A program made the translations under genes and the position numbers. A stretch of 64,000 nucleotides of DNA. Origin: an uncultured Rivularia sp. GTDB lineage: Bacteria > Cyanobacteriota > Cyanobacteriia > Cyanobacteriales > Nostocaceae. Numbering within the stretch: position 1 is the first letter of the stretch; each line of letters opens with the position of its first letter. The notes beneath the pieces were generated by a model. The model searched no databases. It saw nothing but the letters and a program-made list of their open reading frames with translations, and was not told the DNA's origin. The stretch lies in NCBI GenBank assembly GCA_963665115.1, contig OY762007.1:6272001-6336000 (forward strand). Reading direction: 5' to 3'. Shown here piece after piece: positions 35,535 to 64,000 of the stretch.

Positions 35535-36272
35535 TTACCCTTTAATAGATTGAGTGCATTCCGAATATAAAAGTTGAAGAAGTTGGGAACGTGCGGAATT
35601 TATGAAAAAGTGGTTTCCCGGTAGCATATGTAGATTAAAATTATTATTCGTTTGAGAATCCCAAGCAGCTAAGTCTTCGCGGCTGGCTTCGGTATCTTCT
35701 AATCCACCAAAGGCTGTAATCGGACAGCTTAAAGGTGGTTCATTATAGTAATTATAAGTTTCAATCACCGCAAAATCTGCCCGTAAAGTTGGCATTAAAA
35801 GCGCCATAAGTTCGTCATTCGCAAGTATTTCTTCTGGGGTACCGTTCAAGTTACGTAATTCTTCAACAAACTCAGCATCCGGTAAGTCATGAATCGGTGG
35901 CTTGGTTTTAGGAAGTTGAGGGGCACGGTTAGCACAAACAAATAAATGCTGGGGATACAATTGATAATCTCGCCGCAAATGACGAGTTAGTTCAAATGCA
36001 ATTAAACTACCCATGCTGTAACCGAAGAAAGCAAAAGGTTGGTTGAGATGAGGGATTATAGCGGGTTTAAGTTGTTCAATTAAAGTTTCAATGCGGGTGA
36101 AAGCAGGTTCGCTCAATCTTCTTTCCCTTCCGGGTAGTTGAATTAGATAAACTTCAACTATAGGAGATAATTCCTGTGCCCAGTTACGAAAACTCAGGGT
36201 TCCACCTCCTGCGTGATGGAAGCAAAATAGCTTTAGCTGTGGGTTGGGATTGGTTTTGGGGCAGATAATCAT
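35535..36272 (-). CDS. Type II thioesterase
   Basis: LFCFHHAGG, GYSMG nucleophile, PTLRADF, GNHFF. Confidence 0.93.
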   Translation of the reverse strand: MIICPKTNPNPQLKLFCFHHAGGGTLSFRNWAQELSPIVEVYLIQLPGRERRLSEPAFTRIETLIEQLKPAIIPHLNQPFAFFGYSMGSLIAFELTRHLRRDYQLYPQHLFVCANRAPQLPKTKPPIHDLPDAEFVEELRNLNGTPEEILANDELMALLMPTLRADFAVIETYNYYNEPPLSCPITAFGGLEDTEASREDLAAWDSQTNNNFNLHMLPGNHFFINSARSQLLQLLYSECTQSIKG

Positions 36273-36472
36273 GGGAATGGGGAGGGGGAATTGGGAGTAG
36301 CAAGTAATAAGTAATAAGTAATAAGTAATAAGTAATGAGTAAAAGTTTCGAGAACATCCTATAAAGATATTAGATATATAGTAAGTAATTAGCCGGAATA
36401 AGTATAATATTTAATTCGCTAACATCCATCTTAATAATAAGAGAGAAGTAATTCCGAACTGCTCTATACTCC

Positions 36473-37693
36473 CTACTCTTTACTTACTACTTTATACCTG
36501 TAACCAAGCTTTCTAAAATCCAACACCGAGGCTGGTGTAACGACTTCTTTCACTTTTATCAATAAAGATTTAATATTATTTAGTCCATAATCTCCAGGCT
36601 CAGATAATCCTCCATCCCAGGGCCACATTGGATCGTGAAGTTTATGTCCAAAAGGTACGTTTTTGGAGGGATAGAATTTTTCTCCGGTATGTCCTTTGTC
36701 TTGCCACTCTGCCCACAAACGGTCTACGTTGGAGTGAATTAACCAGAAAATTGGGTCGTAGGGGGAACTAGGAATGCTATCCATTGTACCCAAGATGCTG
36801 GTTTGTCTCATGGGGTTATCTTTATCGATGATGCTACCGCCGATAATTGAGTGAGCGCAAGCGTGTAATGTCCAACCTGGAATATATTCACCTTGGTTAA
36901 GTGTTAATGCTCCTTCTATTAATGCATTAAATATTTCGTAATTGTGGAATTTGAAAAGTTGTTCTATCGATGCTTTGGGTATGGGAGAATTACAAGGAGG
37001 CATCCCTACAAATCTAACTAATTTTGTTCCTAAAGATTTCATTCTAATCGGGTCAAAATGAATATTTTCGTTGAGTTTCCAGTCAGCGAAATTACCACTA
37101 GAAACAGCACCTCCTGTAAATTTACCAATACCAGGAATATCGATTGTGCTTCCTTTTCCGTTAGGACCTAAAAAGTCTTCTTGTAATATTACATCTAATG
37201 CTTTGGCATCAGTCCAATCCCAGTAAGGAACAGTTACAGTAGAATCAATCTTCTGTAATTCTTGCTCGAATTGATATAAAAATTGACGGTGCCAAGGTAA
37301 AAATGCTGGCTGTGCGTGAGCGGGATTTCCTTCGGCTTTCCCCGTCGCTCCCAATTTCTTACGAAACCCCATTGTTAAGACGTGTTGCAGCACAAATTGG
37401 TCGTAGAGGCTGATTTTGCTGTCTTTCGGAAATGTATTTTTTAATTTTTTGACTGCTTTTACAAAAGCTTGTTTTTCTGCTGGTGTGAGTTGAGTGACGC
37501 TTTTACGTATCTGGAGGTTATTGTTGGAAACAGTTTGGGGATAGATTAATTGTGGTACTTCTGCTGTTGGTGATGGGGGATGATAATAGCCGGAGTTGGA
37601 AAATATTCGATAAATTATAAAAATTATTATGGTTGTGATTATGGCTATTAGCGCAAATTTAATTAATGGTTTTTTTTTAATAAGATGAATCAT
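36473..37693 (-). CDS. Tyrosinase with N-terminal membrane anchor
   Basis: CuA H...AH..PAFLPWHR; CuB HACAH...DPIFWLIHSNVDRLW. Confidence 0.9.
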   Translation of the reverse strand: MIHLIKKKPLIKFALIAIITTIIIFIIYRIFSNSGYYHPPSPTAEVPQLIYPQTVSNNNLQIRKSVTQLTPAEKQAFVKAVKKLKNTFPKDSKISLYDQFVLQHVLTMGFRKKLGATGKAEGNPAHAQPAFLPWHRQFLYQFEQELQKIDSTVTVPYWDWTDAKALDVILQEDFLGPNGKGSTIDIPGIGKFTGGAVSSGNFADWKLNENIHFDPIRMKSLGTKLVRFVGMPPCNSPIPKASIEQLFKFHNYEIFNALIEGALTLNQGEYIPGWTLHACAHSIIGGSIIDKDNPMRQTSILGTMDSIPSSPYDPIFWLIHSNVDRLWAEWQDKGHTGEKFYPSKNVPFGHKLHDPMWPWDGGLSEPGDYGLNNIKSLLIKVKEVVTPASVLDFRKLGYRYKVVSKE

Positions 37694-37832: not shown

Positions 37833-39011
37833 TCATTGTTCACTGTTAAAAGTTAATATCAACAATATAATTGCTGCAACTGCAAATCCACTACTAACCA
37901 TAAATGTTGTCTGAGAACCAACTTTTTCCCATAATGTCCCTGCTAGAAGACTTGCGGGTAATAGTGCAATCCCCGTAACGAGGTTAATCGCACCGAATGC
38001 TGTACCTCGTAAGTTTTCGGGAACTCTGTCTGCAACTAATGCTAATAATAAGCCTTGAGTTTTACCTAAATATAAACCGCAAAGTGCAAAGAGTATCCAA
38101 ATTTGCCAAGCTGTTTGGGCAATTGCAAAACCAAAATAAACTAGGGCAAATAAGGTAAATCCGCTGACTAATAATCCTTTACGACCTATTCTATCTGAAA
38201 GTACGCCGATGGGATAAGCACTTAATCCATAGGTGATATTCATGACTACAAAACTTAAGGGAATAAGATTTGTAGAAATTCCTATTTCTTTTGCTCGTAA
38301 TAATAGAAATGCGTCGCTAAAGTTTCCTAAGTTAAATAATAACGCTACTGCTAATAACATCCAGTAACTTTTCCCCAAACTTTGAATAGCACTCCACTGT
38401 AAGGGATTGCGTCTTTGATGAGAGGTTCTGGGAGCTTCTTTTACGCCAAGAGTGAGAAGTGCGATCGCCATTAATCCCGGTATCGCAGCACACCAAAAGA
38501 CTAAGCGAAAATTCTGATTTGAATAGAATAATAATCCAGCAGCAATAAGTGGTCCGCTAAAAGCACCAATGGTATCCAGAGATTGACGCAAACCATAAGC
38601 AGCACCACGTTGAGGAGGTGGTGTTACATCGGCAACTAATGCATTGCGGGGAGCAACCCGAATTCCTTTACCTACCCTATCTGCAAAACGAGCTAATAAA
38701 ACCCAAGCGGGAGTTGTCGCAATTGCAAATAATGGAGTTACCAACGCTGATAATCCATATCCGGTTACAGCTAATTCTTTGCGTCTTCCCCAGTAATCGC
38801 TCAAAGCACCGGAAAAGATTTTTAAAACAGAAGCGGTAGATTCTGCAACACCTTCAATTACACCTACCGTGACTAAATTCGTCCCTAAAACAGAAACCAA
38901 AAACAAAGGTAAGATAGACTGAACCATCTTAGAATTAACGTCGGTTAGTAAGCTGACGAAGCCTAAAAACCAAACATTACGAGGAAGCTTTTGAGCGAGT
39001 AGTGCTTTCAC
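37833..39011 (-). CDS. MFS transporter
   Basis: Multi-TM pattern, G.LSD..GRR motif, DRVGKGIRVAPR. Confidence 0.92.
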   Translation of the reverse strand: MKALLAQKLPRNVWFLGFVSLLTDVNSKMVQSILPLFLVSVLGTNLVTVGVIEGVAESTASVLKIFSGALSDYWGRRKELAVTGYGLSALVTPLFAIATTPAWVLLARFADRVGKGIRVAPRNALVADVTPPPQRGAAYGLRQSLDTIGAFSGPLIAAGLLFYSNQNFRLVFWCAAIPGLMAIALLTLGVKEAPRTSHQRRNPLQWSAIQSLGKSYWMLLAVALLFNLGNFSDAFLLLRAKEIGISTNLIPLSFVVMNITYGLSAYPIGVLSDRIGRKGLLVSGFTLFALVYFGFAIAQTAWQIWILFALCGLYLGKTQGLLLALVADRVPENLRGTAFGAINLVTGIALLPASLLAGTLWEKVGSQTTFMVSSGFAVAAIILLILTFNSEQ

Positions 39012-39584
39012 GAGTTTTTATGACGATGGTGAAAAGGACAGCGATTAATAGATTTATTGTTAGGATCTATATGCTTGGTGCGAATTTGTCCGAACTTATT
39101 TAGAGTATCAACTGCCGAGCCTTTTTCAAACCGTAGACTACCTGCTTCATCTCCGCCAAATTTTTGACATACGGCTTTATGGTCTGTTACTAATTCAAAA
39201 TATGCTTCTACAAATTTTTGGTGTACGGATTCTAGTCCCCGGCGGTATATTCTTAAATGTAGGACTAAGACGCTTCCACAACTGCATCAAAGTAGCGTGT
39301 TCCCACGACATTAATCCACTAAAGTTGTCAGATTGAACGTAGGGGGGAGACATTTTTGGACGAATATGAGAATCGTATTCCTGTTTGCTGAAACTACCAG
39401 CAAGCTGCATTGATGCACCACTCGCTAACATTAAGTCAGTTGCAGTTTCTAATTCGGTTCGTGCTGTTGTTATATCACCCAGCAGCAAACTAGATTCAAA
39501 ACGACGCAGACAAATAATTAAGGCTTGAACATTAACAAAAAATGACCAGTGAAATCCTTTCCAAATTTCTTGTGTATTTAACAT
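39008..39584 (-). CDS. Putative heme-dependent aromatic hydroxylase (LmbB2/SfmD-like), +1 frameshift near 39238
   Basis: Y...IRP.M....FSG...EH...H..V..K...SL. The repaired ORF ends CPFHHRHKNS* and overlaps the MFS start (GTGA). Confidence 0.55.
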
Positions 39585-39678: not shown

Positions 39679-40146
39679 TTATTCGATAATTTCTAAGTGA
39701 TAAACCCTTGACAATAGAAGAATATAGCTGATGTATCCCTGTTTCTGTCGTTCAATTGCGAGTGAATCGAAATCATTATTCGGCTCGTTTAACAAAATAA
39801 ACATTCGATAAACCGCTAACATTAAACTTTTAACAATACACAAAGCGGGTTGTTGGCTTTCTACATGGTTTACATCAAAATGACCGTCAAAATCTTCAAT
39901 CTGCCAGCTTTTTAGTGCTGTTTTTGAAGAAGATATTTTTGCAGGAAATACATCTGGGGAAGCTAATTTGTATAATTCATCTTTAATAATCACAAGCGCA
40001 TCAGAAGCATCTACTTGTTTTAGCGCTTTCAATATCTGGCTAAGTGCTTGAGACAATTTAACTGTATCAGCTTCACTTAATTTTTCATCAAAAGGTAAAT
40101 CCCAAGGAACAAGCAAATCAAGCTGAAATTCATCATAATTGGCCAT
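39679..40146 (-). CDS. Hypothetical protein in the cluster
   Basis: 155-aa ORF with RBS GAGG, co-oriented within the operon. Confidence 0.75.
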   Translation of the reverse strand: MANYDEFQLDLLVPWDLPFDEKLSEADTVKLSQALSQILKALKQVDASDALVIIKDELYKLASPDVFPAKISSSKTALKSWQIEDFDGHFDVNHVESQQPALCIVKSLMLAVYRMFILLNEPNNDFDSLAIERQKQGYISYILLLSRVYHLEIIE

Positions 40147-40178
40147 GTCCTCTAAGCACTAATATTTTTAGGTTTTAT

Positions 40179-40385
40179 TTAAGTATTAGAGGTAGATGCA
40201 TCCATTTTTTTTCGTAAACTAAGAGGTCGCATATCTGTCCATACTTCTTTAATATAATCTAGACACTCTTGTTTTGTACCTGTTTTCCCAGCCGAACGCC
40301 AACCATAAGGAATCTCACGATATTCAAACCAAATTGAATATTCTTCTTCTTCACTAATTACCACAGTATATATAGTATCTTCCAT
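40179..40385 (-). CDS. mbtH: MbtH-like NRPS accessory protein
   Basis: E..YSIW.....P.GW.....[16 protein letters not shown]. Confidence 0.95.
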
Positions 40386-40996: not shown

Positions 40997-41000
40997 TTCA

Positions 41001-41301: not shown

Positions 41302-42796
41302 TTAAAGGGGGGCTATAAATCCTGCTTGTTGTAATTCTTTTGCACTGTCTTTGAATGCTTGAATAATATTGTTAATATCTTCTTCGGTATGGGCTGTGGA
41401 AAGAAATCCGCCTTTGTCACCTTGTCGCAAATGAATTCCTTTCATGAGTAAATGAAATGACATTAAATTTGTCGCTATTGGGGAAATATTACTCTGGGAA
41501 TTATCTGCTGCAAAGAAGGAACCAAAGTGAGTATAAGTAAGAGGAATTCCTTCTTTTGTAAAGTAATTATTTAATTCTTTTACTAATTCAGATGTTCGCT
41601 TATTTAGCTTTTCCTGTAGCCCTACTCCTTCTGCTTTCAAATGCTCAAGTACGGCTTTTGATGCTGCTAAGGCTAATGGGTGTTTACAAAAAGTACCTGC
41701 AAAAAAGGTTGTTTTAGTTTGGGGAGCAGAATCATCACCGTAATTCCAAGTACCACCGTCGATGCTATCCATGTAAACAGCTTTACCCGCAATTACGGAC
41801 ATCGGTAAACCACCACCCACGATCTTGCTGTAGGTAACGATATCGGCATCAATATCAAACCAAGCTTGGGAACCACCCTGATGAATTCTAAATCCTGTCA
41901 CCATTTCATCAAAGATTAAGGCAATTCCAGCTTTTGAAGTTACACTTCGTAATTGCTGTAAAAATTCTCTGGGTTGTAATTGGGGACAGCGACTTTGTAC
42001 GGGTTTCCACTAATACCGCTGCTAACTGGTTTTTATTTGCTTCAATTACTTTTAATGACTGGGGATTTCCATAATCAAGCACCAACACGTTTTTTGCTAT
42101 ATCCTTGGGAATACCCGGTGCAGCAGGAACTCCTTTCGGACTAACGCTGTTTTTCAAACTTGATTGTATCGGACGCAATAAACCAGATATTAAACTACCA
42201 CTGGCGATTTTTCCTTCTAGTTTACGACTTGCAGCTTGTTTGGCATACTGGGCAATTGTCGCTCTAATTAAGGTACTATCCGAGTGTCCGTGATAAGAAT
42301 TTGTAAAAATAGCGATTTTATTGCGATTTGTTACGGTTCTAGCCATGCGAATCGCTGTCATGATGGCTTCTGTACCCGTATTGCTGAAAGTTGCTCTTTC
42401 TAATCCCGTTAATTCGCAGATGAGTTGAGCCACTTCACCAGCTAACTCGGCTTGGTATCCCATTGAGAAACCTTTATCCAATTGTGTGGCGATCGCCTTT
42501 TTGACAAATTCTGGATTGTGACCGAGTAAATTGATTCCCAAACCCATTAAAATATCGGTATACTCGTTGCCGTCAATATCCCAAAGTTTAGCACCAGCAG
42601 CCTTTTCCACAACAACTGGATAACATACCTCTTTTAATTCTGGAGAAAATCCCAATCCTAAAGAACTTTTATCTGCTAAAACCGGACGATAGGTTTGAGC
42701 ATAATTTTTCGATGCTTGGGTTCGCTTTGTATAGGATGCGATTAATTTTTCTAAATGTTGTGTTTGTAAATCGGTTTTATCTTTGGTTATCGTCAT
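41302..42796 (-). CDS. Class III PLP aminotransferase (GSA-aminomutase-like), +1 frameshift near 42004
   Basis: WDIDGNEY, NTGTEA, YHGH, repaired VEPVQSR, LIFDEMVTGFR, SKIVGGG, GTF. Confidence 0.88.
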
Positions 42797-42854: not shown

Positions 42855-43709
42855 CTAATTTTTACGACAAATGAAATAAGCCGAATGATTGTCATCTAAT
42901 TGTGTTTTTCCATCGATAGTTTTAATTTGAATTTGGGTAAATCCAATTTCTTCTAATGCTGCTTTGACTTCCTCTGGATAATATCCCCTAACTTCATAGG
43001 TAATGTCTGAACGCTGCCAATTCTCCCACTGTTGAAAGTTAGATAATACTTTAAGACGAAATCGAGTTAATAATTTCAAACTTAATAATTTATACAATAA
43101 CTGCTTCAAACTTCCTTTTCTTCTGACCTTAGTTAGAGTTTGAAAAAGTGTGACTTTAAAATCCCCCATTCTATTTGTAGAGTCATAATTTGGGGTAATA
43201 TACCAAGCAAGTTCATCTTCTATTTCACCTTCTGCAACTTGAGAATTCCACCATTTTTGCATTTGTTCTGCATGGTTTAAATCAAACATAAATAAACCAT
43301 TCGGCTTTAATGCATTGTAAACGCTACTAAAAACAGCCTTTAATTCGTCAATGCTCAAAATATGATTTAGTGAAGCACTACTAGAAACAACTCCATCAAA
43401 ACGTTCTGTAAGTTTAAAAGTGCGAGCATCTCCTAAAATAAATTCTCCCTGTGGTGCATTTTGATGAGCATAATCGAGCATCGCTTCCGAACCGTCTAAA
43501 CCCGTTACTTTGTATCCTCGCTGTAACAATGGCTGCATTAAATGTCCAGTTCCACAGCACAAATCTAGTAAATCTGCGTCTTTAGGTAGATGTGGTAGTA
43601 ACATGATTTCTACAGGCTTAAGTTGCTCCAAGCCATACTGCGGTCCCATTGTATGGTTGTACAGCCAAGCCCAGGTATCGTATTCAGAATAGCGATTGGT
43701 TTTCACCAT
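42855..43709 (-). CDS. Class I SAM-dependent methyltransferase
   Basis: LLDLCCGTG, GLDGS..ML, LKPNG.F. Confidence 0.92.
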   Translation of the reverse strand: MVKTNRYSEYDTWAWLYNHTMGPQYGLEQLKPVEIMLLPHLPKDADLLDLCCGTGHLMQPLLQRGYKVTGLDGSEAMLDYAHQNAPQGEFILGDARTFKLTERFDGVVSSSASLNHILSIDELKAVFSSVYNALKPNGLFMFDLNHAEQMQKWWNSQVAEGEIEDELAWYITPNYDSTNRMGDFKVTLFQTLTKVRRKGSLKQLLYKLLSLKLLTRFRLKVLSNFQQWENWQRSDITYEVRGYYPEEVKAALEEIGFTQIQIKTIDGKTQLDDNHSAYFICRKN

Positions 43710-43746: not shown

Positions 43747-43765
43747 ATTAAAATAAATTCTCAAT
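43747..43765. promoter_or_regulatory. Putative Fur box upstream of the tailoring operon
   Basis: ATTAAAATAAATTCTCAAT, with a perfect ATTCTCAAT half-site, about 40 nt above the methyltransferase start. Confidence 0.6.
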
Positions 43766-44111: not shown

Positions 44112-44130
44112 TTTAAGAATTATTTGCAAC
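44112..44130. promoter_or_regulatory. Weaker putative Fur box upstream of the large secreted protein
   Basis: TTTAAGAATTATTTGCAAC. Confidence 0.35.
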
Positions 44131-44256
44131 TATTGCAAATATACGGCAATCTCAACTTATGATGATTGTGTTCGGTGAGCATTCAATCGGTTTTTTTTGT
44201 CAAGATAATAACTTATTTTCGCTTGCGTATTAAATCAAATGCGCTGGCTCGGTTTT

Positions 44257-47400: not shown

Positions 47401-48453
47401 CCTTAGACCAAGTTAGTGTGGCAGAAGAAGTTGAACTTAACGACACGCTAGCTGAAGCGAATGCGTTAGGTTTGAGCTTGGATAACCCTTCTGTTTCTCT
47501 TAATGGCTCTATCAATAGAAACGGAAACACTGTTGATTATCCCGAAGATGTCGATTTATACTCATTCAATCTTGATGCTGGACAAACCGTCAGTTTGAAC
47601 ATTGACACAGAAGAAGTGCTTCCTGAAACGCTTGAATTTAGACCAATAGTATTTCCAGCGTTGGAAGAAACACTTCAAAAGCCAGATACAGAACTGCGCT
47701 TGTTTGATGCAGAAGGTAACGAACTCGCTGCGAATACTGATGGTGCAGCTCCCGATGAAGACTTCTCCCGCGACCCCCTATCTTGAGTTTACTGCCGAAA
47801 CAGCAGGGACTTACTACGTAGGCGTAAGCCAACTAGGCAACCGTAACTACGACCCCAACGTCATCAGAAGCGGTAGCGGTTGGACGTTCCCAGAGGTGGG
47901 CGTTTACTTTGGTCCTTACGATTTAACTGTCTCTTTAGAAGATGGTACTAACAACCCAGCGGAACCTACCGAACCCGTATTCGGCTCCTTAGAAGCAGAT
48001 ATTATCGAAGTCACCGGAACCAGTCAACTAATTTTCGGTGGTGATTCCGACGATTTAATCGACGCTTCTATTGGTAGCACGGGGAGCAACCGTATTTACG
48101 CTGGTAGCGGTGACGATACTGCAATCCTGGGAATGTCCGATAGAATTGTCGGTGGTGAAGGCGCTGATAAATTCTTCGCAACTTCTGGCGGTGATAATAT
48201 TCTTACCGGGGGTGCGGGTGCAGATCAATTCTGGATTGCCACAGCCGAAACTCCCGATGCAGCGAATATCATAACCGACTTTACCAGTGGCGAAGATGTC
48301 CTTGGTATTGCTGGCTTAGGAATCGGCTTTGATGATTTGAGTATTACCCAGCAGGATGATAACACTTTGATTGCTACGAATAATTCTGATTTAGCTATTT
48401 TGCAGGGTATTGCTGCCGATAGCTTGATTGTAGATAACTTTGCGTTTGGTTAA
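44472..48453 (+). CDS. Large acidic secreted/surface protein with PPC-like domains and an RTX-like tail, +1 frameshift near 47776
   Basis: Two EDVDLY...L.AG..(I/V) PPC-type units, duplicated beta-sandwich segments, GG.G.D repeats and ITDF..GED tail; no Sec signal. Confidence 0.8.
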
Positions 48454-55686: not shown

Positions 55687-56388
55687 TTATTCAATTTTCC
55701 AAGCTTTTTCTATCGCAATATATCCTTGAATATCGTACTCTTTTAATTGTTTTCTATTAAAAGGATAAAAATCATTTTCACCAAAGTAAGCTTCTGATAG
55801 TTCTGCAAAATACTCGGATTTATTTGTTAAAGCATAAGCATCTTTCGGTTTCTTACCGTGATTTTTAGGTACTTTTTTATATAAACCGGAATTTAGGGCA
55901 TGATTATAAGCATCAATAATTGGTTGAAAATCTTTACCAATAATTCTATCGTGATAAGCATGAGCTAGTTCGTGTAAGACGTGCCAAGGTTGGGTTTTTG
56001 TTCTGGAAATAAAATTGCGGATATTGCTAATTTCGACAGCTTTAGCTTTCTCTGGATTATAACCATGATTTCTCAACCATTTTGCAGAAGGATGGTAAAC
56101 CATTCCTGAAAAACCCTGAATATCTTTTTCCACCCAGATAGTCACGTTTTTGAGAAATTCATGGTGTTTTCGAGAAACAACACGCTCAACATTTTTTAAT
56201 TTTATATCGAGTAAAGCAATTGCGTCTTTGGTAATTTGTTTTTCTTCTTTCCAAAGTTTACGATTAATTTTAACTTTCCAGCCTTGAATATTTTTAGTTT
56301 CATATTCTGAGTTGCTAAATCCGCAACTGAATAGAAAAATTAAAATTAAAAAGCTGATTGAAGAAAATGCCAGCCAAAAAATCTTCAT
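55687..56388 (-). CDS. Exported zinc metallopeptidase-like protein
   Basis: N-terminal hydrophobic signal; HELAH plus downstream EYFAE. Confidence 0.75.
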   Translation of the reverse strand: MKIFWLAFSSISFLILIFLFSCGFSNSEYETKNIQGWKVKINRKLWKEEKQITKDAIALLDIKLKNVERVVSRKHHEFLKNVTIWVEKDIQGFSGMVYHPSAKWLRNHGYNPEKAKAVEISNIRNFISRTKTQPWHVLHELAHAYHDRIIGKDFQPIIDAYNHALNSGLYKKVPKNHGKKPKDAYALTNKSEYFAELSEAYFGENDFYPFNRKQLKEYDIQGYIAIEKAWKIE

Positions 56389-56392
56389 TTTC

Positions 56393-57304
56393 TTATCGTC
56401 TCAACCAACCATTCAGCGTAAAACGACTAGCTTTAAATTCATTTGAAGAACACGAAATCGGTAAAACTTCATGTTTACAGCGGCTGTTGAAGAAAATAAT
56501 ACTATTATTACGAGGTTCTATGACTTGACTATTTTCTTTTTGAATCACCTTTTTACCCTGCACTTCTGTATCATATATTTTTAATTCACCACCCGTAAAT
56601 TGTTTCGGCTCTTGATAAAAATAATAGACATAAGTTAATTCCCTCGTTTTAGTTTTTTCGCTTCCTGCATCGGTATGAGCTTTATAAAAAGCACCATCAT
56701 TATGAGCCGTCATCTGCATTTCTACATGAGAAACCGAAAACTCTGGATGTTTTAACTGATTTATAAGAGATGGAAATGTTTCTAAAAGTTTACTTTTTAT
56801 TAAATAATAAACTTCTGAAAACTCCTTTCCTGGTAAAATCAATGATTGACGATAATTTTCGGTATTAGTAACGGTTCTAGAATCTTGGAATTTTGATTCT
56901 TTTTTAAAGGCTGTATCTATAACTTTTTGATATTCTTCTTCAGGTAAAAAGTTGTCTATTTGTAAATAAGTAGCTGGGAAAAGTTTATATTCTATCTGAG
57001 ATGTATTTCCATTATTTATGGGAAATCTGGCAATTTTTGCTGGTTCGGAATTTTTTACCGTAAGTGGTAATTTATTATTTTTGGTTTCGGTTACTTTTAC
57101 TTGCTCGCTTTTATCTGAATAATTAGCAATTTGTAAAATTTTTAAAGCAATTTCTGCTCTTTCTGACGGAGAAATTTTTGTATCGTCAAGAATTTTTTCT
57201 AAGGTTTGTTGAGATTTGATAGCCAGAGAATTAATTATATTAGATATTTCTGCGTTCTTAAATTCGGTTTCTGCTTGGTTATGACTCTGTTTGTTGTTTA
57301 ACAT
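56393..57304 (-). CDS. 2OG-Fe(II) oxygenase (prolyl-hydroxylase-like)
   Basis: HTD...GGEL...HEV...R.TLNGW. Confidence 0.88.
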   Translation of the reverse strand: MLNNKQSHNQAETEFKNAEISNIINSLAIKSQQTLEKILDDTKISPSERAEIALKILQIANYSDKSEQVKVTETKNNKLPLTVKNSEPAKIARFPINNGNTSQIEYKLFPATYLQIDNFLPEEEYQKVIDTAFKKESKFQDSRTVTNTENYRQSLILPGKEFSEVYYLIKSKLLETFPSLINQLKHPEFSVSHVEMQMTAHNDGAFYKAHTDAGSEKTKTRELTYVYYFYQEPKQFTGGELKIYDTEVQGKKVIQKENSQVIEPRNNSIIFFNSRCKHEVLPISCSSNEFKASRFTLNGWLRR

Positions 57305-57338
57305 TATTAATAATAATTCTTGATTATTTTACATAATA

Positions 57339-60300
57339 TTACAATTCAATTTCTTTACGCCCTGTGGTTGGGGTGTTGGGGTTTTTCATTGATTGTATGG
57401 TGATTTGTAAGGCTTGGATATGTTCGGCGATCGCCACAATTGTCGGTTTCTCAAAAATGCTTCTCAACGGTAAATCTAGCTCAAAGGTTTGCCGTAAACG
57501 GGAGTTTATCCGAGTCGCTAAAAGCGAGTTACCACCTAAATCAAAGAAGTTATCGTAAATTCCAACTTGCTCTAGTTTTAAAACTTCCTTCCAGATGGTA
57601 GCAATGGCTTCTTCGCTAGAGTTACGCGGTGGCACCCTGTGGAGTAATTTTACACCTATTTCATCCACTGCGAGCAAAGAACGTCTATCGATTTTACCGT
57701 TGGATGTCAGTGGTATGGATTCCAAAATTACAAATGCAGAAGGTACCATATAACTAGGTAACTTTGCTTCTAAGAAAGAGCGCAAAAAAGTTTTTAGTTC
57801 ATCCGTTGCATCCGTTGCTGTTTCTGCTTGAATAGGAACAACATAAGCAACAAGACGTGAATTATTGTTTTGATTTTGGCTTTGATATTCTTTCGCAATA
57901 ACTACAGCAGTTTTAACTTCCGGGTGTTGCAACAATACAGCTTCAATTTCCCCTAGCTCAATCCGGAAACCGCGAATCTTCACCTGATAGTCAATCCTTC
58001 CTAGAAATTCTATGTTCCCATCGGGTAAATAACGTGCTTTATCTCCGGTTTTATAAAGAGCGGAGGGGGCAGAGGGGGTAGAGGGGGTAGAGGGGGTAGA
58101 AAATGGATTTGGTATAAATCTTTCTGCGGTTAAATCGGGACGCTTAAGATACCCGCGTGCTAAACCATCACCCCCGATGTATAATTCTCCCGCGACTCCA
58201 ATGGGAACCTGACGCAGGTGAGAATCGAGAATGTAAATTTGGGTATTGTGGATGGGAGTACCAATGGGGAGAGTGTGAGAGGGGGAAGAGGGGGAAGAGG
58301 GGGAAGAGGGGGAAGAGGGGGAAGAGGGGGAAGAGGGGGAAGAGGGGGAAGAGGGGGAAGAGGGGGAAGAGGGGGAAGAGGGGGAAGTAATTTCTTTTTC
58401 AACCTTCAATTCTCCTTGTCCCTTTGTCTCCTTGTCCCCTTGTCGTCTTCCAATTCCCCATGCCGTCACATCAATTGCGGCTTCTGTGGGGCCGTAAAGG
58501 TTATGTAGTTGAGCATCAAGACGATTAAAGAAACGGTTTTGTAATTCAATTGTCAATGCTTCACCGCTACAAATAACCTGCTTAAGAGATTTACACGATT
58601 CTAATTGTGGCTCTTCCAGAAAAGCTCCGAGCATAGAAGGAACAAAATGCACTGTGGTAATTTGTTGCTCTTTAATTAAATTTACTAAATATCCACTGTC
58701 TTTGTGTCCTCCCGGTTTGGCTATTATTAAAGTTGAACCAAATAATAATGTCCAGAAAAATTCCCAAACCGAAACGTCAAAACTAAAAGGTGTTTTTTGC
58801 AAAACTCGGTCATCGGCTGTGAGTTGATAGGTTTGCTGCATCCACCACAGCCGATTTACTAAGCCGCGATGGGTGTTGATTACTCCTTTTGGTTTTCCCG
58901 TTGAACCTGATGTATAAATTACGTAAATGCTGTTTGCTAAACTTGTGGTATTTACTGAATTAATTTCAGGTAATTGAGCAGCATATGATAGAATTTCTGT
59001 AATTTTTTCTTGAGTTAAAACCGTTTTTACTTGAGTTTCTTCCTTTATAAAATCTAATCGTTGTTGGGGATATTCTGGATCGAGGGGGACATAAGCACCA
59101 CCCGCTTTCAAGATAGCAAGGATACCAATTACCATTTCTAAAGAGCGCTCTAAACTGATACCAACTAAAACTTCTGGTTTTACTCCGATGCTTCGTAGAT
59201 AATGCGCTAATTGATTGGCTTTAGTATTAAGCTCTTGATAGGTAAGCTTTTCATCCTCAAAAATTACCGCAGTTGCATTCTTATTACGCTCAACTTGTGC
59301 TGCAAATAATTCGTGGATGCATTGCTGCGGATATTCAGCTTCAGTTGAATTCCACTCTGCTAATAACTGCTGTTGTGCATCTGTGAATACGGGCAATTCT
59401 ATCAAAGATTGTTGGGGATTATTCGCAATATTTTCTAAAAGAGTATAGAAACTCACGAATAAATTAGTAATTGTTAAATCATCGAAGCGTTGTGAATCAT
59501 ATTTAATTTTAAAATTAAGTTCATTCGCTGCTGAAACCAGCATTGTCAAAGGAAAACTTGTCCATTCTAAGGAATTTACTTTTTCAATTTTTAGTTCATT
59601 TTGAGACTTTAATAATGAAGCATCAACTGGATAATTTTCAAATACTAAAATATGCTCAAACAGCGTTGAACCTCGGGGAATTTCGCTCCAGCTTTGAATT
59701 TCTAATAAGGGACTATATTCGTACTGTAATGCTTCTATTTGTTGAGTTTGCAGTTGTTGTAACCAGGTAATTAATGATGCTTGGGGGTCAATTTGTACTC
59801 GTACTGGTAGAGTATTGATAAATAATCCTACCATTGCTTCAGACCCAGAAAGTGTAGCCGGACGACCGGAACTTGTAGCACCAAAAACGATATCATCTTG
59901 ATTGCAATACCGACTCAAAAGAATAGCAAAAGCCCCTTGAATCAAAGTGTTGAGAGTAAATTGATGGTTTTTGGCTAAATTTTTGAGAGTAGTAGTGATG
60001 CTTGCTGGTAAAGAGATTTCCTTTTCAGTCCAATTAGTTTTTGTCGAATTTGACGACGATTGTTTAACTTGCACCATATTTGGTGTAGTAAATCCCTGAA
60101 GTTGAGTTTTCCAAAATGTCTTTGCTGCTGATAAATCTTGCTGTCCCAACCAAGCAATATATTCAGCATAAGGACGACTATTATAAATTGGTAAATCTGC
60201 ACCGTTGTGAAATACTTGATATAGCCCAAAAACTTCTTTGAGAACTAATCCTGCTGACCAACCATCGATAATTAAATGGTGTTGCGTCCAAACAAATTGA

Positions 60301-60710
60301 TAGCGAGTTTCTGTTAGTTGAATTAAATTTATACGGAATAAAGGCGGAATTTTGAGGTCAAATCTCTGCTTTCTATCCTCTTCCAGAAAATCCTCTAACT
60401 TTTGCTGTTGTTCTGATATTGAAAATTCTCGCCAATCCTGCTGTTGCCAAGGTAATTCTAAAACTTTATATACTACCTGAAAAGCTTCGTCTCTTTTTTC
60501 CCAACGAAAAGCCGTGCGTAATATAGAATGTCGTCTAAATACTTCTGACCAAGCTTTTTGAAAAGCAATTACATCTGTTAACCCATCAACAGTAATACAA
60601 ACCTGCGGTACATAAGCACCAGCTTCCGGCGCAAGCAAGCTGTGAAATAGTATACCTTGCTGCATCGGTGAAAGGGGATATATATTTTCAATATTTTTTT
60701 GTTTATTCAT
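57339..60710 (-). CDS. NRPS module C(DCL-type)-A(Ser)-PCP
   Basis: IYPLSPMQQG, HHLIIDGWS; hand-read code DVWHISLIDK (Ser); FFDLGGNSL. Confidence 0.93.
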   Translation of the reverse strand: MNKQKNIENIYPLSPMQQGILFHSLLAPEAGAYVPQVCITVDGLTDVIAFQKAWSEVFRRHSILRTAFRWEKRDEAFQVVYKVLELPWQQQDWREFSISEQQQKLEDFLEEDRKQRFDLKIPPLFRINLIQLTETRYQFVWTQHHLIIDGWSAGLVLKEVFGLYQVFHNGADLPIYNSRPYAEYIAWLGQQDLSAAKTFWKTQLQGFTTPNMVQVKQSSSNSTKTNWTEKEISLPASITTTLKNLAKNHQFTLNTLIQGAFAILLSRYCNQDDIVFGATSSGRPATLSGSEAMVGLFINTLPVRVQIDPQASLITWLQQLQTQQIEALQYEYSPLLEIQSWSEIPRGSTLFEHILVFENYPVDASLLKSQNELKIEKVNSLEWTSFPLTMLVSAANELNFKIKYDSQRFDDLTITNLFVSFYTLLENIANNPQQSLIELPVFTDAQQQLLAEWNSTEAEYPQQCIHELFAAQVERNKNATAVIFEDEKLTYQELNTKANQLAHYLRSIGVKPEVLVGISLERSLEMVIGILAILKAGGAYVPLDPEYPQQRLDFIKEETQVKTVLTQEKITEILSYAAQLPEINSVNTTSLANSIYVIYTSGSTGKPKGVINTHRGLVNRLWWMQQTYQLTADDRVLQKTPFSFDVSVWEFFWTLLFGSTLIIAKPGGHKDSGYLVNLIKEQQITTVHFVPSMLGAFLEEPQLESCKSLKQVICSGEALTIELQNRFFNRLDAQLHNLYGPTEAAIDVTAWGIGRRQGDKETKGQGELKVEKEITSPSSPSSPSSPSSPSSPSSPSSPSSPSSPSSPSSPSHTLPIGTPIHNTQIYILDSHLRQVPIGVAGELYIGGDGLARGYLKRPDLTAERFIPNPFSTPSTPSTPSAPSALYKTGDKARYLPDGNIEFLGRIDYQVKIRGFRIELGEIEAVLLQHPEVKTAVVIAKEYQSQNQNNNSRLVAYVVPIQAETATDATDELKTFLRSFLEAKLPSYMVPSAFVILESIPLTSNGKIDRRSLLAVDEIGVKLLHRVPPRNSSEEAIATIWKEVLKLEQVGIYDNFFDLGGNSLLATRINSRLRQTFELDLPLRSIFEKPTIVAIAEHIQALQITIQSMKNPNTPTTGRKEIEL
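58278..58386. repeat. In-frame 9-bp tandem repeat (GAGGGGGAA)x12 inside the NRPS A domain
   Basis: Encodes (SPS)n. Confidence 0.9.
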
Positions 60711-60856
60711 TTTAAATAAGGGAATAGGGAATAGGGAATAGGGAATAATAATAAATAAAGCTTAAAGGTCAAAGGTAAAGAGTTAGGAGTTAGGAGTTAG
60801 GAGTTAGGAATTATCTTCCCCTTGTCTTCTTATCTTCCCATGCCCCATTCCCTCTT

Positions 60857-63800
60857 CTACAAATCCTCCAAAATATCATCCAATTCATCTTGACTCAACT
60901 GCATTTGCGAAAAGTCGGAAGGTGTATATCCCCCAATTTCATTACTACAAATTTGAATCAGATTTCGCAAAGCCATCATATACTCTTCCGTAACATTAAT
61001 AATCGAGCTTCGACGATGAACTGCTGTGGAATAAATCCAGTCAATCCGTAATTGACCTGCGCTAATTATCCCATTAATTTCTAGTAAAATATCTCGATTC
61101 CCGCGTTTGCTACGAGCTGCACCTGTAGATTCTTTTGCAGGTTTTACAAAAGTTGATTCTGCGAAAACTCCATCAACTTGACCTAAATAATTAAATCGGA
61201 TTTGTGGAGAAATTGCGCTCAGTTGCGTTTGTATTTCTTGATTACCCAAATATCGCAAAATACCGTAATCAATTCCTCGGTTGGGAATTTGGCGTAGTTG
61301 TTCTTTAATATTTTTAAGATTAGAGATTGCATCTTTTGTTTCACGCAAATCCAGCCAAACTGGAAACATTGTAGTAAACCAACCTACGGTACGAGATATA
61401 TCGACTTCGTTAAATAAATCTTCTCTTCCGTGTGCTTCTAAATCAATTAATAAACGTTTTTCACCCGTCCACTTTTCAAAGGTTTGTATTAGTGCTGTTA
61501 ACAATACATCATTAATTTGGGTTTGGTATGCTGCGGGTACTTGCTGTAATAAAGCTTGTGTTTCTTCTACGCTAAAAGTAATTGAAACTGTATCTGTAGT
61601 CTCAACAGTATTATTTCCTTGGGGATAATCTATTGGTAAGGAAATTTCTGGAATTGGACAGATACTTTGCCAGTATTCTATTATTTGTTCCGGTATTTGT
61701 AGAGCATAATTATGTAGAGATTGAGCATAGTCTTTAAAAGATGTAGTTTTCGGTGGTAGTTGGATTTGTTGATTTGAATTTAAACCAGAACTTAATTGTT
61801 CAAAAGCTGTTTGTAAATCAGATAAAAGAATTCGCCAAGATATTCCATCGATAACTAAATGGTGAATTACAAACAGCAAGCGATTGGAATTATTCTTATC
61901 TAATTTAAAAAATGCTACACGAACTAATTCAGTTGCAAGATTAAGGCTGGTTTGTAATTGGGTTGCTGTTTTAGTTATTGTTGATTGTTGCTGTTCTTCA
62001 TTTAAAGCTGATAAATCAAATTGCAATAACGGAGTTTGTTTATTTATATAATTATCTACATCGGCATTAATTTCTTTTAACCCAGATTCTGTATTCTGAA
62101 ACTGCAAACGCAATGCGTCATGATGTGTTAAAAGTTTCTGTATACTTTGCTCAATCCATGCAAACGGAATTGATTTATCCACTTCAAGCATTATTGATTG
62201 ATTCCAGTGATAGGAATCCGCAAGATTTTGAGCAAAAAACCAATTTTGAATCGGTGTTAACGGTACAATTCCCGTAACCTTTCCTTGCTCTGCATTTACA
62301 GAAACAGTATCGGCAACTGCTGCTAACTCCGCAATAGTTTGATGTTGAAACAATTGCTTGGGTAAGAAACGCAAACCAGCTTGACTAGCTTTAGCAATTA
62401 CTTGTATTGCTAAAATTGAATCACCACCCAACTCAAAGAAATTATCGTGAATTCCTACCGATTCAATACCAAGTAACTGACTCCAAATTTTTACTAGTAG
62501 TTGTTCTTGTCTCGTTCTTGGTTTTGCATTATTCTTATTATCTTGATGCTGATTTTTTAATTTATTTTGATAATTATCTGGTTCCGGAAGAGCGCGACGA
62601 TTAATTTTACCATTGGGAGTTAATGGCATTTCTGGCAACATCATAAAGATAGCCGGAATCATGTAATCGGGAAGTTTGTTTTGGATAAATTGTCGTAATT
62701 GAGTTGAAAAATTATCTTGATTGACTGAATTTTTTAAAACAAAATAAGCAACTAAACGTTTATTTCCCGATTTATCTTCCCAAACTTTAGTAACAGCTTG
62801 ATGAATTTCCGGATGTTGACTCAAAGCGCTTTCAACTTCTCCTAATTCAATCCGGAAACCGCGAAGTTTAACTTGATTATCAAAGCGTCCAAGGTATTCA
62901 ATCTTGCCATCAGGTAAGTAACGTGCTTTATCGCCGGTTTTGTATAGTTTGGTAATGGGTAATGGGTAATTGGTAATGGGTAATTGGGCTTTCTTCTCTC
63001 TTCCTTCTTCCTCAGCGCTCTCTGCGTCTCTGCGGTTTTTTAATCCATCACCTTTCGCAGAAACATAATTAAACGGATTAGGAATTAATTTTTCTGCGGT
63101 TAATTCTGATTTATTGAGATATCCGCGCATTAAACCATCACCCCCAAGGTACAATTCACCGGGAATACCTACAGGAACTAGTTGTAAATAACTATCAAGA
63201 ATGTAGGTTTGGGTATTGGCGATCGCACTTCCGATGGGAGGAGATTGGTAATTGGTAATTGATAATTGGTAATTGATAATTGATTCTTGTCCCCCAACTA
63301 AAGCATATGTCGAATACGTCGTATCTTCACTCGGCCCGTAAAGGTTATAAATATTTTGAATCTGAGGATGTTGTTCAAGCTGCTCTACTAAACTTTGTTG
63401 TAAAGCTTCTCCGGCTAAATTAATTGTATTAACTGAATTGGGAATGGCTTTTAGTTGGGATAATTGCGCGATCGCACTTGGCACTGTATTAATTAAAGTA
63501 ACCGAATCTGCTGTATTCAGGTAGGGAAGTTGTAAAGCATTTTCTGCGATAATTACTTTTCCACCCCAAGATAAAGGTACAAATAATTCAAACACAGATA
63601 AATCAAAACAAATGGAAGTTGATGCGAGTACTCCTGAAAGTTGTGTATTGTTGAAGACATCCCGCGACCAGTGAATCAAGGTTGTAGCGCTACGATGGGT
63701 AATTGCGACACCTTTGGGTTTTCCAGTGGAGCCTGATGTGTAGATGATATAAGCAAGGTTTTGGGGGGTCTACTTTTACATTAATATTGGCTGTGCTTTC

Positions 63801-64000
63801 TTGATTTATTTGATTCCAATCTGTTTTGAAATTAATAATATTAAAGAATTCACGATTATAAATTGCAAATTCCGAATTCTGAATTAAAACAGAAACCCCA
63901 GCATCTGCGAGCATATACGTTAATCGCTCTTGGGGATATGCTGGATCTAAAGGAACATATGCTGCTCCAGCTTTAAGAATACCTAATAATCCAATCACCA
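60857..64000 (-). CDS. NRPS, 5' end outside window: A(Ala)-PCP-E plus COM donor, +1 frameshift near 63765
   Basis: Code [34 protein letters not shown] and FNYLGQ epimerase motifs; C-terminal TPSDF...ELDDIL. Confidence 0.92.

What the first reader, a model, noticed from the sequence alone, without database searches (positions are those of the whole stretch)
35535..64000. Anachelin-like catechol siderophore cluster with a variant peptide (...D-Ala-L-Ser-aromatic)
Seen: the last three modules are A-PCP-E (Ala code), C-A-PCP (Ser code) and C-A-PCP (aromatic-like code), with no terminal TE. A reductase, aminotransferase, methyltransferase, tyrosinase and Fur-like boxes accompany them. Known: anachelin ends Thr-D-Ser-L-Ser-Dmaq, and Dmaq is proposed to form from Tyr/DOPA by reductive release, amination, N-dimethylation and oxidative cyclization. 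Inference: the same chromophore logic with D-Ala replacing D-Ser, so probably a new congener. The upstream part lies outside the window.
Basis: partly seen in the sequence, partly recalled or inferred. Interest (0 to 1): 0.75.

Follow-up and report, generated by a model that had tools for sequence, protein, structure and literature searches.

The report
Fabrubactin-type siderophore with extra hydroxylase
These genes are the last third of a large cyanobacterial assembly line whose layout matches the Agrobacterium iron-chelator fabrubactin rather than anachelin, and which likely makes the same still-unidentified iron-scavenging molecule as a long-known Anabaena PCC 7120 cluster, predicted to carry an extra hydroxyl on its catechol ring system.

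Summary
In detail: Ala-T-E, Ser-T and aromatic-T modules, reductase, aminotransferase, methyltransferase, tyrosinase and Fur-like boxes are all there. The anachelin reading does not. The line continues about 110 kb beyond the window and has no salicylate genes. It has a fatty-acyl starter, four PKS modules, an FbnE-like monooxygenase and Asn(E)-Gly-Val(E)-Gly-PKS-Ala-thiazole-Gly-Ala(E)-Ser-DOPA modules. Ala-thiazole-Gly-Ala and the terminal code match fabrubactin, so the real change there is Ser for Gly. The Ala(E)-Ser-DOPA tail is the common form (14 of 14 relatives readable that far). A Trichormus record close to PCC 7120 has the same ten module codes; that strain's product was still called uncharacterised in 2026. 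That domain is absent from the anachelin-type and Agrobacterium clusters examined, and a model places it on the terminal carrier. Best reading: a fabrubactin-type lipopeptide siderophore ending in a beta-hydroxylated Dmaq; no chemistry was tested. The frameshifts look like assembly noise. This scan noted the hydroxylase-reductase fusion twice before on other genomes. The primary fabrubactin paper could not be read and may already cover it.

The parts
31410..34685 (-). DevBCA-type ABC exporter (DevB split by a frameshift)
   Evidence: DevB and DevC also flank the cluster in G059, G573, G661
35535..36272 (-). stand-alone type II thioesterase (editing enzyme, inferred)
   Evidence: PF00975 E 1.7e-54
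36473..37693 (-). tyrosinase with a hydrophobic N-terminal anchor; optional in the family, fixed in this genus
   Evidence: PF00264 E 1e-39; 5 of 35 loci; on the same contig as the FbnM-like gene in 6 of 6 other genus members that have that gene
37833..39011 (-). MFS transporter
39008..39584 (-). FbnM-like heme tyrosine hydroxylase subunit (SfmD C-terminal part), frameshifted near 39243
   Evidence: SfmD 6vdp E 1.8e-4; intact 191-aa orthologue E 2.7e-9 with the H-x-x-V-C-x-x-F motif aligned; 50% to the Agrobacterium gene
39679..40146 (-). FbnL-like partner subunit
   Evidence: 26% identity, E 8e-10, to the syntenic Agrobacterium 'siderophore biosynthesis protein'
40179..40385 (-). MbtH-like protein
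   Evidence: PF03621
40441..41258 (-). two small accessory ORFs (109 and 85 aa), kept in part of the family; function not known
41302..42796 (-). class III aminotransferase, split by a frameshift near 41990; one ORF in relatives
42855..43709 (-). SAM-dependent methyltransferase (N,N-dimethylation, inferred)
   Evidence: 44% to the Agrobacterium gene, 38% to the anachelin-layout gene
43747..43765 (.). Fur-like box just before the methyltransferase start
   Evidence: 4 mismatches; core invariant in 3 relatives
44112..44140 (.). weaker overlapping Fur-like palindromes in the divergent promoter
   Evidence: 5 mismatches
44472..48453 (+). large acidic secreted protein (PPC and RTX-like end), inserted between reductase and methyltransferase; not there in the three close relatives aligned; split near 47700
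48842..51907 (-). CmlA-type diiron beta-hydroxylase - TubC_N docking domain - thioester reductase fusion
   Evidence: PF18456 E 9.5e-96, PF18563, TIGR01746; CmlA 4jo0 E 9e-114, metal-ligand motifs kept; 55% to P0121
51985..55570 (-). terminal module TubC_N-C-A(DAPTLGAVNK, the FbnH DOPA code)-T with C-terminal REEMEF docking tail; frameshift near 54536
55687..57304 (-). two inserted accessory genes: HExxH peptidase-like protein and 2OG-Fe(II) oxygenase
   Evidence: found in only 2 of 77 related loci
57306..57324 (.). Fur-like box before the 2OG-Fe(II) oxygenase
   Evidence: 4 mismatches
57339..60710 (-). C-A(Ser)-T module with C-terminal RKEIEL docking tail
60857..64000 (-). A(Ala)-T-E end of a C-A(Gly)-T-C-A(Ala)-T-E gene that starts beyond the window; frameshift at 63763. 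The rest of the line (thiazole module, four PKS modules, Asn/Gly/Val/Gly modules, FAAL, monooxygenase, TonB receptor) lies at G000:C1:6336001-6445572 and is mapped in the full report

Best explanation
The window holds the last modules and the end-processing cassette of a split, roughly 140-kb FAAL/PKS/NRPS cluster with fabrubactin-type genes, which likely makes an iron-regulated lipopeptide siderophore predicted to end in a beta-hydroxylated version of the Dmaq catechol. Predicted chain: fatty acyl starter, two reducing and C-methylating PKS steps, a PKS step rearranged by the FbnE-like monooxygenase to a first alpha-hydroxycarboxylate, D-Asn, Gly, D-Val, Gly, a second such PKS step, Ala, thiazole, Gly, D-Ala, L-Ser, then DOPA made by the FbnL/M-like pair. 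The last carrier would dock by its REEMEF tail on the fusion protein; the CmlA-type domain would hydroxylate the beta carbon of the tethered DOPA, the reductase release an aldehyde, and aminotransferase, methyltransferase and oxidation (the tyrosinase may help here) close the quinolinium ring. Two alpha-hydroxycarboxylates plus the catechol would give six iron ligands. Shown: genes, domains, codes, order, conservation. Inferred: residues from codes, the order across the two arms, every chemical step, iron regulation. Whether the hydroxyl stays (4-hydroxy-Dmaq) or is lost as water is open.
For: Domain map and codes. Fabrubactin's listed residues Ala-OxCys-Gly-Ala-Gly-DOPA and the FbnH code DAPTLGAVNK. 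The Agrobacterium 15955 cluster carries the FbnP, FbnO-Cys and FbnH codes and the same FAAL, two KR* PKS, monooxygenase and cassette. The same ten codes occur in one uninterrupted nine-gene run in G661, G059 and G573, which fixes the order across the two arms. G661's fusion protein clusters at 90% with accession BAB74340.1, which I recall as PCC 7120 All2641; that cluster is described as seven NRPS and two PKS genes with four FurA boxes and as responsible for most siderophore production. Metal-ligand motifs are kept in 73 to 76 of 76 readable CmlA domains. G206 and G651 have the fusion but no Asn or Val code in the stretches fetched; the only codes they both share with this cluster are Ala and the terminal aromatic one. 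Complex model of hydroxylase plus docking domain with the terminal carrier: score 0.63, best of 3 controls 0.00; the mark was reached by 116 of 157 solved complexes and 2 of 215 mismatched pairs; runs agree in at least 88% of contacts, partner pLDDT at least 82; the tail lies on the docking domain and the region with the carrier serine on the hydroxylase. Fur-like boxes 11 against 0.375 expected, and a TonB-dependent siderophore receptor inside the cluster.
Against: No compound, expression or enzyme data. The best solved relative of the hydroxylase domain is 8a90 (470 bits, above CmlA's 385), which I recall as FrsH, a leucine beta-hydroxylase acting in trans, so the substrate need not be aromatic. 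The complex model may pass by likeness to solved docking-domain complexes, and no other carrier of the line was modelled, so it does not show specificity. The PCC 7120 link rests on one protein, a recalled accession and a proxy genome. The first two PKS modules lack the AT active-site serine here and would need loading in trans. One run (X1) carries the three frameshift bases that the other runs lack. C58's own cluster and the primary paper were not seen.
Confidence: 0.66

Rival explanations
1. Same fabrubactin-type lipopeptide, but it ends in plain Dmaq: the CmlA-type domain either hydroxylates another tethered residue (Val, Asn) in trans or has no effect on the final product.
For: The family includes FrsH, which hydroxylates carrier-bound Leu; the top structural hit is not CmlA itself. 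Anachelin-layout and Agrobacterium clusters have the same terminal code and cassette with no such domain.
Against: Fusion to the docking domain and reductase that serve the last carrier; conserved ligands; clusters without Val or Asn codes keep it; the model places the terminal carrier on it.
Confidence: 0.18
2. The product chelates metal but its main role is not iron uptake (for example copper binding or protection from oxidative stress).
For: The title of the PCC 7120 study links the cluster to the oxidative stress response as well (seen only as a reference); thiazole and catechol groups bind other metals (own knowledge).
Against: Fur-like boxes, a siderophore-type TonB receptor, and the report that the PCC 7120 cluster accounts for most siderophore production.
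Confidence: 0.08
3. The cluster is decaying in this strain and makes nothing.
For: 12 frame changes in 11 of 35 cluster-region genes compared, plus the aminotransferase split that this count missed; run X1 agrees with the assembly at the three sites tested; degenerate AT sites.
Against: Frame changes are as frequent outside the cluster: 21 of 148 orthologues, 1.45 per 10 kb against 1.16 inside, including three in a gene I recognise as magnesium chelatase H, which a phototroph needs. Runs X2 and X3 lack the extra base at all three sites and X4 at the two it covers. An AT degeneration is also seen in the open-frame C. parasitica cluster.
Confidence: 0.05
4. One reading: an anachelin congener, salicylate-Atha-Thr-D-Ala-L-Ser-Dmaq.
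For: Shared L-Ser module, terminal code, reductase, methyltransferase, aminotransferase and hydroxylase pair with the anachelin-layout cluster G560.
Against: No salicylate synthase over cut-off in a 99.9% complete genome; no salicylate ligase, KSIII-ACP, Thr module or Atha-type PKS pair in the cluster; FAAL, thiazole module and FbnE-like gene instead.
Confidence: 0.02

Closest known systems
Anabaena/Nostoc sp. PCC 7120 all2641-all2649 siderophore cluster (Jeanjean 2008; orthologue in Nodularia), product uncharacterised
   Same: By proxy (Trichormus record G661, whose fusion protein clusters at 90% with BAB74340.1): the same nine genes, the same ten A-domain codes, the same hydroxylase-docking-reductase fusion (55% identity to P0121), monooxygenase, DevBC exporter and large acidic proteins; Fur boxes in both.
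   Different: Here the nine genes are split into two divergent arms by about 40 kb of acidic secreted proteins and the receptor; a tyrosinase, MbtH with two small ORFs, an MFS and a 2OG oxygenase are added to the cassette; the first two AT domains are degenerate. PCC 7120's own DNA was not read.
Fabrubactins A and B, Agrobacterium fabrum C58 (proxy: A. tumefaciens 15955 and A. ampelinum S4 plasmid clusters)
   Same: FAAL starter, two KS-AT-KR*-ACP modules, FbnE-like monooxygenase (61%), Ala-OxCys-Gly-Ala(E) core, DAPTLGAVNK terminal module, reductase, methyltransferase, aminotransferase, MbtH, FbnL/M-like pair.
   Different: L-Ser module in place of the A-less C-T protein at the position listed as Gly; reductase split off and fused to a CmlA-type hydroxylase; added acyl-CoA dehydrogenase, two methylating PKS modules and Asn(E)-Gly-Val(E).
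Anachelin, Anabaena cylindrica (proxy: unnamed G560, which has the elements of the published layout)
   Same: L-Ser before the terminal module, the same terminal code, and the Dmaq cassette.
   Different: No salicylate starter, Atha PKS pair, Thr or D-Ser; anachelin-layout clusters have R fused to the terminal module and no CmlA-type domain.
CmlA (chloramphenicol) and FrsH (FR900359) diiron beta-hydroxylases
   Same: Full-length match with metal-ligand motifs kept.
   Different: Those are free-standing; this one is fused to a docking domain and a thioester reductase.

Membership tests
anachelin | salicylate starter genes (synthase, ligase, KSIII-ACP) | tested here: not met
   TIGR03494 best 118 bits against cut-off 325 in G000, outside the cluster; present in G560
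anachelin | Cy module plus two reducing PKS modules (Atha) before the peptide | tested here: not met
anachelin | L-Thr-D-Ser-L-Ser tripeptide modules | tested here: not met
   Gly, Ala(E), Ser here; Thr, Ser(E), Ser in G560
anachelin | Dmaq cassette (terminal module, reductase, MT, AmT, tyrosine hydroxylase) | tested here: met
fabrubactin family | FAAL fatty-acyl starter | tested here: met
fabrubactin family | FbnE-type flavin monooxygenase | tested here: met
   TIGR04020 MupA/Atu3671, 521 bits against 244; that Atu3671 is FbnE is recalled
fabrubactin family | two KS-AT-KR*-ACP modules as sites of the alpha-hydroxycarboxylates | tested here: met
   two modules with a GDL-type motif in place of GGLGG, as in the Agrobacterium PKS read (GEL/GDL); their chemical role is inferred
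fabrubactin family | Ala-OxCys-Gly-Ala core | tested here: met
fabrubactin family | FbnL/FbnM pair and FbnH DOPA code | tested here: met
fabrubactin A/B proper | Gly before Dmaq; C-A-T-R in one protein; short N-terminal part | tested here: not met
   Ser module, separate hydroxylase-reductase, five extra extension steps
fabrubactin family | product with Dmaq and two alpha-hydroxycarboxylates | not testable with these tools
   needs isolation
PCC 7120 all2641-2649 type | nine-gene set (seven NRPS, PKS, reductase gene) with the same modules | tested here: met
   through proxy G661 and one direct protein comparison; accession-to-locus mapping recalled
PCC 7120 all2641-2649 type | one contiguous operon | tested here: not met
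   split into two arms
PCC 7120 all2641-2649 type | repression by Fur and iron | not testable with these tools
   boxes enriched in silico only
CmlA/FrsH diiron beta-hydroxylases | H-x-H-x-D-H, Glu, Asp, Glu iron ligands | tested here: met
   ligand identities recalled from CmlA
CmlA/FrsH diiron beta-hydroxylases | beta-hydroxylation of a carrier-bound amino acid | not testable with these tools
   only a structural model

The most novel reading that the evidence does not exclude
Most cyanobacterial Dmaq clusters, including the unsolved second siderophore of Anabaena PCC 7120, make a long methyl-branched lipopeptide of the fabrubactin type whose catechol end is beta-hydroxylated on the carrier by a hydroxylase-docking-reductase fusion, giving an undescribed chelating group: 4-hydroxy-Dmaq or, after loss of water, a conjugated dihydroquinolinium that converges on the pyoverdine chromophore, matured in this genus by an anchored tyrosinase.
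Probability: 0.5. Interest if true: 0.68.

Novelty: new variant of a known kind. Interest (0 to 1): 0.45.

Why it matters
Few cyanobacterial siderophores are structurally known: a September 2026 preprint counts 24 structures and still calls the second Anabaena PCC 7120 siderophore uncharacterised. This locus and its intact relatives give a residue-by-residue prediction for that compound class and a diagnostic fragment to look for, in a model strain where a deletion has been described. The hydroxylase-bearing form is the majority among the cyanobacterial FbnM-positive genomes tested (28 of 38), while the two solved Dmaq compounds correspond to cluster layouts without it. The locus itself is not unique, and the kind of pathway is known.

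Tried and rejected
Anachelin congener: rejected on upstream genes. Tyrosinase as the defining Dmaq enzyme: rejected as general, since it was found in only 5 of the 35 loci that hold at least 4 kb after the FbnM-like gene, and not in the G560, G306, G029 or Agrobacterium stretches. Loose Fur pattern on the whole window: borderline, not used. My first code extraction by pairwise alignment misread some positions and was replaced by multiple alignment. D-Asn prodrug idea (ClbP-like maturation): the beta-lactamase-family hydrolase kept in G000, C. parasitica, G059 and G573 is far closer to alkaline D-peptidase (E 2.9e-58) than to ClbP (E 1e-11; G059's copy searched), and was not found in the Crocosphaera or Methyloversatilis stretches; left as a lead. 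Trees of 16 reductase and 16 methyltransferase sequences: the methyltransferase tree puts the three salicylate-started clusters with G206 and G651 (100/100), apart from G000; those two do carry the hydroxylase, so the domain does not follow one clade and no order of gain or loss is claimed. No RNA holder listed. Read support was obtained only for window-continued 60001-80000; the breaks at lower coordinates rest on comparison with relatives. No NRPS-independent siderophore synthetase was found in the genome with PF04183. The primary fabrubactin paper is not held. Searches for a described beta-hydroxy-Dmaq or a structure for the PCC 7120 compound found none in the library listings: anachelin + biosynthetic gene cluster, fabrubactin, Dmaq + siderophore, locus tags, PCC 7120/Jeanjean, CmlA/diiron/reductase/siderophore, tetrahydroquinolinium/anachelin; most subscription papers are not in it.

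Full report
Observation. The window's ORFs from 35535 to 64000 lie almost all on the minus strand. Pfam and NCBIfam give, from the window end downwards: A-T-E, C-A-T, a 2OG oxygenase and a peptidase-like ORF, TubC_N-C plus C-A-T (one gene split by a frameshift), a 1021-aa protein with CmlA_N, metallo-beta-lactamase, TubC_N and thioester-reductase domains, an inserted plus-strand secreted protein, methyltransferase, aminotransferase in two pieces, two small ORFs, MbtH, two unassigned ORFs, MFS, tyrosinase and type II TE. Codes read from a multiple alignment anchored on the Ser module are DLFNNALTYK, DVWHISLIDK and DAPTLGAVNK.

The rest of the line. The window is G000:C1:6272001-6336000 of a single 8.69-Mb contig, 99.93% complete. 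Continuing the window numbering (add 6,272,000 for the contig), the minus arm is C-A(Gly)-T at 86376-89672, KS-AT-KR*-ACP at 76921-81604, C-A(Ala)-T-Cy-A(Cys)-Ox-T at 69218-76752 (Cys code read in two pieces across a break) and C-A(Gly)-T-C-A(Ala)-T-E at 60857-68993, which runs into the window. Beyond about 40 kb of acidic secreted proteins, an MFS and an AMIN-domain TonB receptor (126426-129119), a plus arm encodes FAAL-ACAD-ACP (129927-133883), two KS-AT-DH-MT-ER-KR-ACP modules (133865-149362), a KS-AT-KR*-ACP (149331-154335), a MupA/Atu3671-family monooxygenase (154352-155500), C-A(DATKIGEVGK)-T-E (156757-161657), C-A(Gly)-T-C-A(DAFWLGGTFK)-T-E (161699-169822) and two ABC proteins (170057-173572). 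DATKIGEVGK is listed for D-Asn/Asp in tistrellabactin; the Val, Ala, Gly and Ser assignments rest on my own knowledge of the codes, with close printed variants. The two arms are one pathway: in G661, G059 and G573 the same genes form an unbroken nine-gene run with the same ten codes (Val as DAFWIGGTFK). C. parasitica NIES-267 has the split layout with open frames, and Methyloversatilis thermotolerans has the same module set, with some code variants, in another order.

Not anachelin. G000 has no salicylate synthase over the cut-off (118 against 325 bits; 8 of the 29 genomes searched had one) and the cluster has no Thr module.

Fabrubactin type. A supplement table gives fabrubactin's residues as Ala-OxCys-Gly-Ala-Gly-(epsilon-OH-Tyr) and the FbnH code as DAPTLGAVNK (PMC12283262, supplement file 1, part 3 and searched rows). 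FAAL loading of C10 is listed in a review (PMC11837247, passages). Dmaq synthesis starts with the two-protein heme peroxidase FbnL/M, and FbnE is proposed to make two alpha-hydroxycarboxylates (PMC12971057 and its 2022 preprint, passages). I did not obtain C58's cluster. The cluster on A. tumefaciens 15955 pAt15955 has the FbnP, FbnO-Cys and FbnH codes and serves as proxy. G000 matches it in FAAL, two KS-AT-KR*-ACP modules with an altered nucleotide-binding motif, the monooxygenase (61%), the Ala/Cys-Ox gene, the Gly/Ala-E gene and the cassette. D-Ala is thus the fabrubactin residue, and the difference at the tail is Ser for Gly. The two unassigned ORFs are the FbnL/M-like pair: one matches SfmD (E 1.8e-4; intact orthologue 2.7e-9), the other the syntenic Agrobacterium gene (E 8e-10).

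How common. A scan with the fusion protein confirmed 187 of 194 stretches; the best 80 gave 77 loci. All 77 have the CmlA part and 63 also the reductase. Of 41 with at least 7 kb after the CmlA part, 39 have MT, AmT and the FbnM-like gene. The module before the fusion reads DAPTLGAVNK in 46 of 49 and DGPTLGAVNK in 3; the next code read upstream is Ser in 24 of 26 (2 read Ala); all 14 loci readable over three modules have Ala with an E domain. These loci were found with the fusion, so they do not measure how often it is absent. For that I took 38 of the 46 genomes with an FbnM-like match, leaving out the eight weakest matches (E above 1e-30): 28 have a CmlA_N domain, 25 the monooxygenase family, 24 both. 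The five genomes whose salicylate synthase lies 24-36 kb from the FbnM-like gene (G560, G306, G533, G550, G029) all lack the domain, as do the two Agrobacterium-group stretches. Kin are not independent, and two CmlA-bearing clusters group with the salicylate-started ones in the methyltransferase tree, so no history is claimed.

Link to PCC 7120. The fusion protein of the named Trichormus record L032 (genome G661) clusters at 90% with P0121, accession BAB74340.1; I recall this accession as All2641 of PCC 7120. The window's protein is 55% identical to it over 1015 residues. The all2641-2649 cluster is described as nine ORFs, seven NRPS and two PKS, with four FurA boxes (PMC4005646, passages), as orthologous to the C58 and Nodularia clusters (PMC5955973, passages), as responsible for most siderophore production with unknown structure (PMC6562677, passages), and as still uncharacterised in September 2026 (bioRxiv 10.64898/2026.07.24.740629, passages). 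Jeanjean 2008, Rondon 2004 and Vinnik 2021 were not seen; what I say of their content beyond these citations is recalled. Their supplements, which I could not see, may describe these clusters.

The extra hydroxylase. The N-terminal 546 residues match 8a90 (E 1.3e-139) and CmlA (E 9e-114), with HNHQDH at 309, GEHGD at 380, AADS at 405 and GMEC at 432; the four motifs are kept in 76, 76, 73 and 75 of 76 readable relatives. Such enzymes beta-hydroxylate carrier-bound amino acids, and FrsH does so on Leu (PMC7794379, passages). Three points favour the terminal residue as target. The domain is fused to the docking domain and reductase that must meet the last carrier, whose C-terminal REE motif is invariant in 29 of 29 aligned sequences. 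G206 and G651 keep the fusion with different upstream modules and no Asn or Val code in the stretches fetched. A complex model scored 0.63 against a best control of 0.00 (mark reached by 116 of 157 solved and 2 of 215 mismatched pairs; at least 88% contact agreement; partner pLDDT at least 82), with tail residues 93-100 on the docking domain (600-622) and carrier residues 36-63, including the attachment serine 42, on the hydroxylase (50-76, 451-455). Docking-domain complexes of this kind have, as I recall, been solved, so part of the pass may be likeness, and no other carrier was tried. Two earlier notes of this scan reached the same reading on other genomes; I saw them after forming mine, and they are not independent support.

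Regulation and transport. Fur-like palindromes are enriched in the cluster's intergenic DNA (11 against 0.375; genome-wide rate 0.43 per 10 kb of intergenic DNA), though a looser pattern over the whole window was borderline. The receptor passes TIGR01783 (354 bits against 223.5). AMIN-domain receptors are described for cyanochelin uptake (bioRxiv 10.64898/2026.07.30.741596, passages).

Frameshifts. Against C. parasitica, 21 of 148 orthologues outside the cluster show a frame change (1.45 per 10 kb) and 11 of 35 inside (1.16 per 10 kb); both are lower bounds, as the aminotransferase split was missed. At the three break sites tested (63763, 70007, 71151), contigs of runs X2 and X3 lack one base, X4 does so at the two it covers, and X1 agrees with the assembly; all four runs are of one study and X1 may be the source. 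I read the breaks as assembly error, with a small chance that they are real in this strain.

Verdict. A real, probably intact cluster of a known family. It works like fabrubactin and belongs with the PCC 7120-type clusters; it is neither anachelin nor fabrubactin A/B. Its value is the concrete structure prediction, above all a modified Dmaq, for a widespread and unsolved cyanobacterial siderophore. Other papers seen only in passages: PMC11092185 (an Aquincola cluster called 14% similar to fabrubactin), PMC11392904, PMC10391617.

Noticed in passing
window 44472-48453 (+) and window-continued 84517-123625 (G000:C1:6356517-6395625): About ten large, very acidic proteins (15-30% Asp+Glu, 1-5% Lys+Arg) with PPC, Ig-like or RTX-like parts and a shared C-terminal ...DNFAFG-type end fill the middle of the cluster; several have Fur-like boxes upstream. 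C. parasitica has a similar array, and G059, G573 and G661 have 1000-4400-aa counterparts next to the monooxygenase and DevBC exporter. They may be iron-regulated type I-secreted surface proteins tied to this siderophore; function unexplained.
   Followed up: partly
window-continued 89742-93071 (L002:9742-13071, minus): Secreted-type protein with two beta-lactamase-family serine hydrolase domains; single-domain versions lie in the C. parasitica, G059 and G573 clusters. The closest solved relative of G059's copy is alkaline D-peptidase. With D-Asn, D-Val and D-Ala in the predicted product it could trim or recycle it.
   Followed up: partly
window-continued 133865-146814 (+): The first two PKS modules lack the AT active-site GHS motif here, and a like change is seen in C. 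parasitica, while G059 and Methyloversatilis keep it; they would need malonyl loading in trans.
   Followed up: partly
window 55687-56388 (-): 233-aa HExxH zinc-peptidase-like protein with a hydrophobic N-terminus and a below-cut-off hit to PF07737 (26.1 against 27.4 bits); with the neighbouring 2OG oxygenase it occurs in only 2 of 77 related loci.
   Followed up: no
window 40441-41258 (-): Two small ORFs beside MbtH: 109 aa with a Pfam hit to core-binding-factor beta (annotated 'MbtH domain protein' in Gloeocapsa) and 85 aa without a family; kept in many but not all related cassettes.
   Followed up: no
G206:C1:320513-384946; G651:C74:25159-73000; G029:C1:627540-664766; G306:C1:957416-994106; G533:C3:883360-918900: Other Dmaq-cassette clusters with new peptide parts: lines ending Ser-Thr-DOPA (G206) or Ala-Thr(E)-DOPA (G651) with the hydroxylase and a tyrosinase, and salicylate-started lines with Gly-Gly-Ser-DOPA (G306), an unassigned residue plus Ser-PKS-Ser-DOPA (G029), or the DOPA module alone (G533). 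The last three are the true anachelin-like variants.
   Followed up: partly
G410:C6:154578-155659; G650:C51:32142-33246: FbnL/M-like gene pairs with no NRPS found in the stretches fetched, so this marker does not always mean a Dmaq cluster.
   Followed up: no
window 29367-30858: Fur-like box between an ABC ATPase and a sucrase/ferredoxin-like gene; this gene family also flanks several related clusters, including G560.
   Followed up: no
whole G000 assembly: About 1.5 frame changes per 10 kb of coding DNA relative to a close relative; split genes elsewhere in this genome should be suspected of being assembly errors.
   Followed up: yes
several NRPS/PKS genes, e.g. within window 57339-60710 and L001: In-frame insertions of short repeats (Pro/Ser-rich runs and dispersed repeats) inside A, AT and KR domains.
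   Followed up: no
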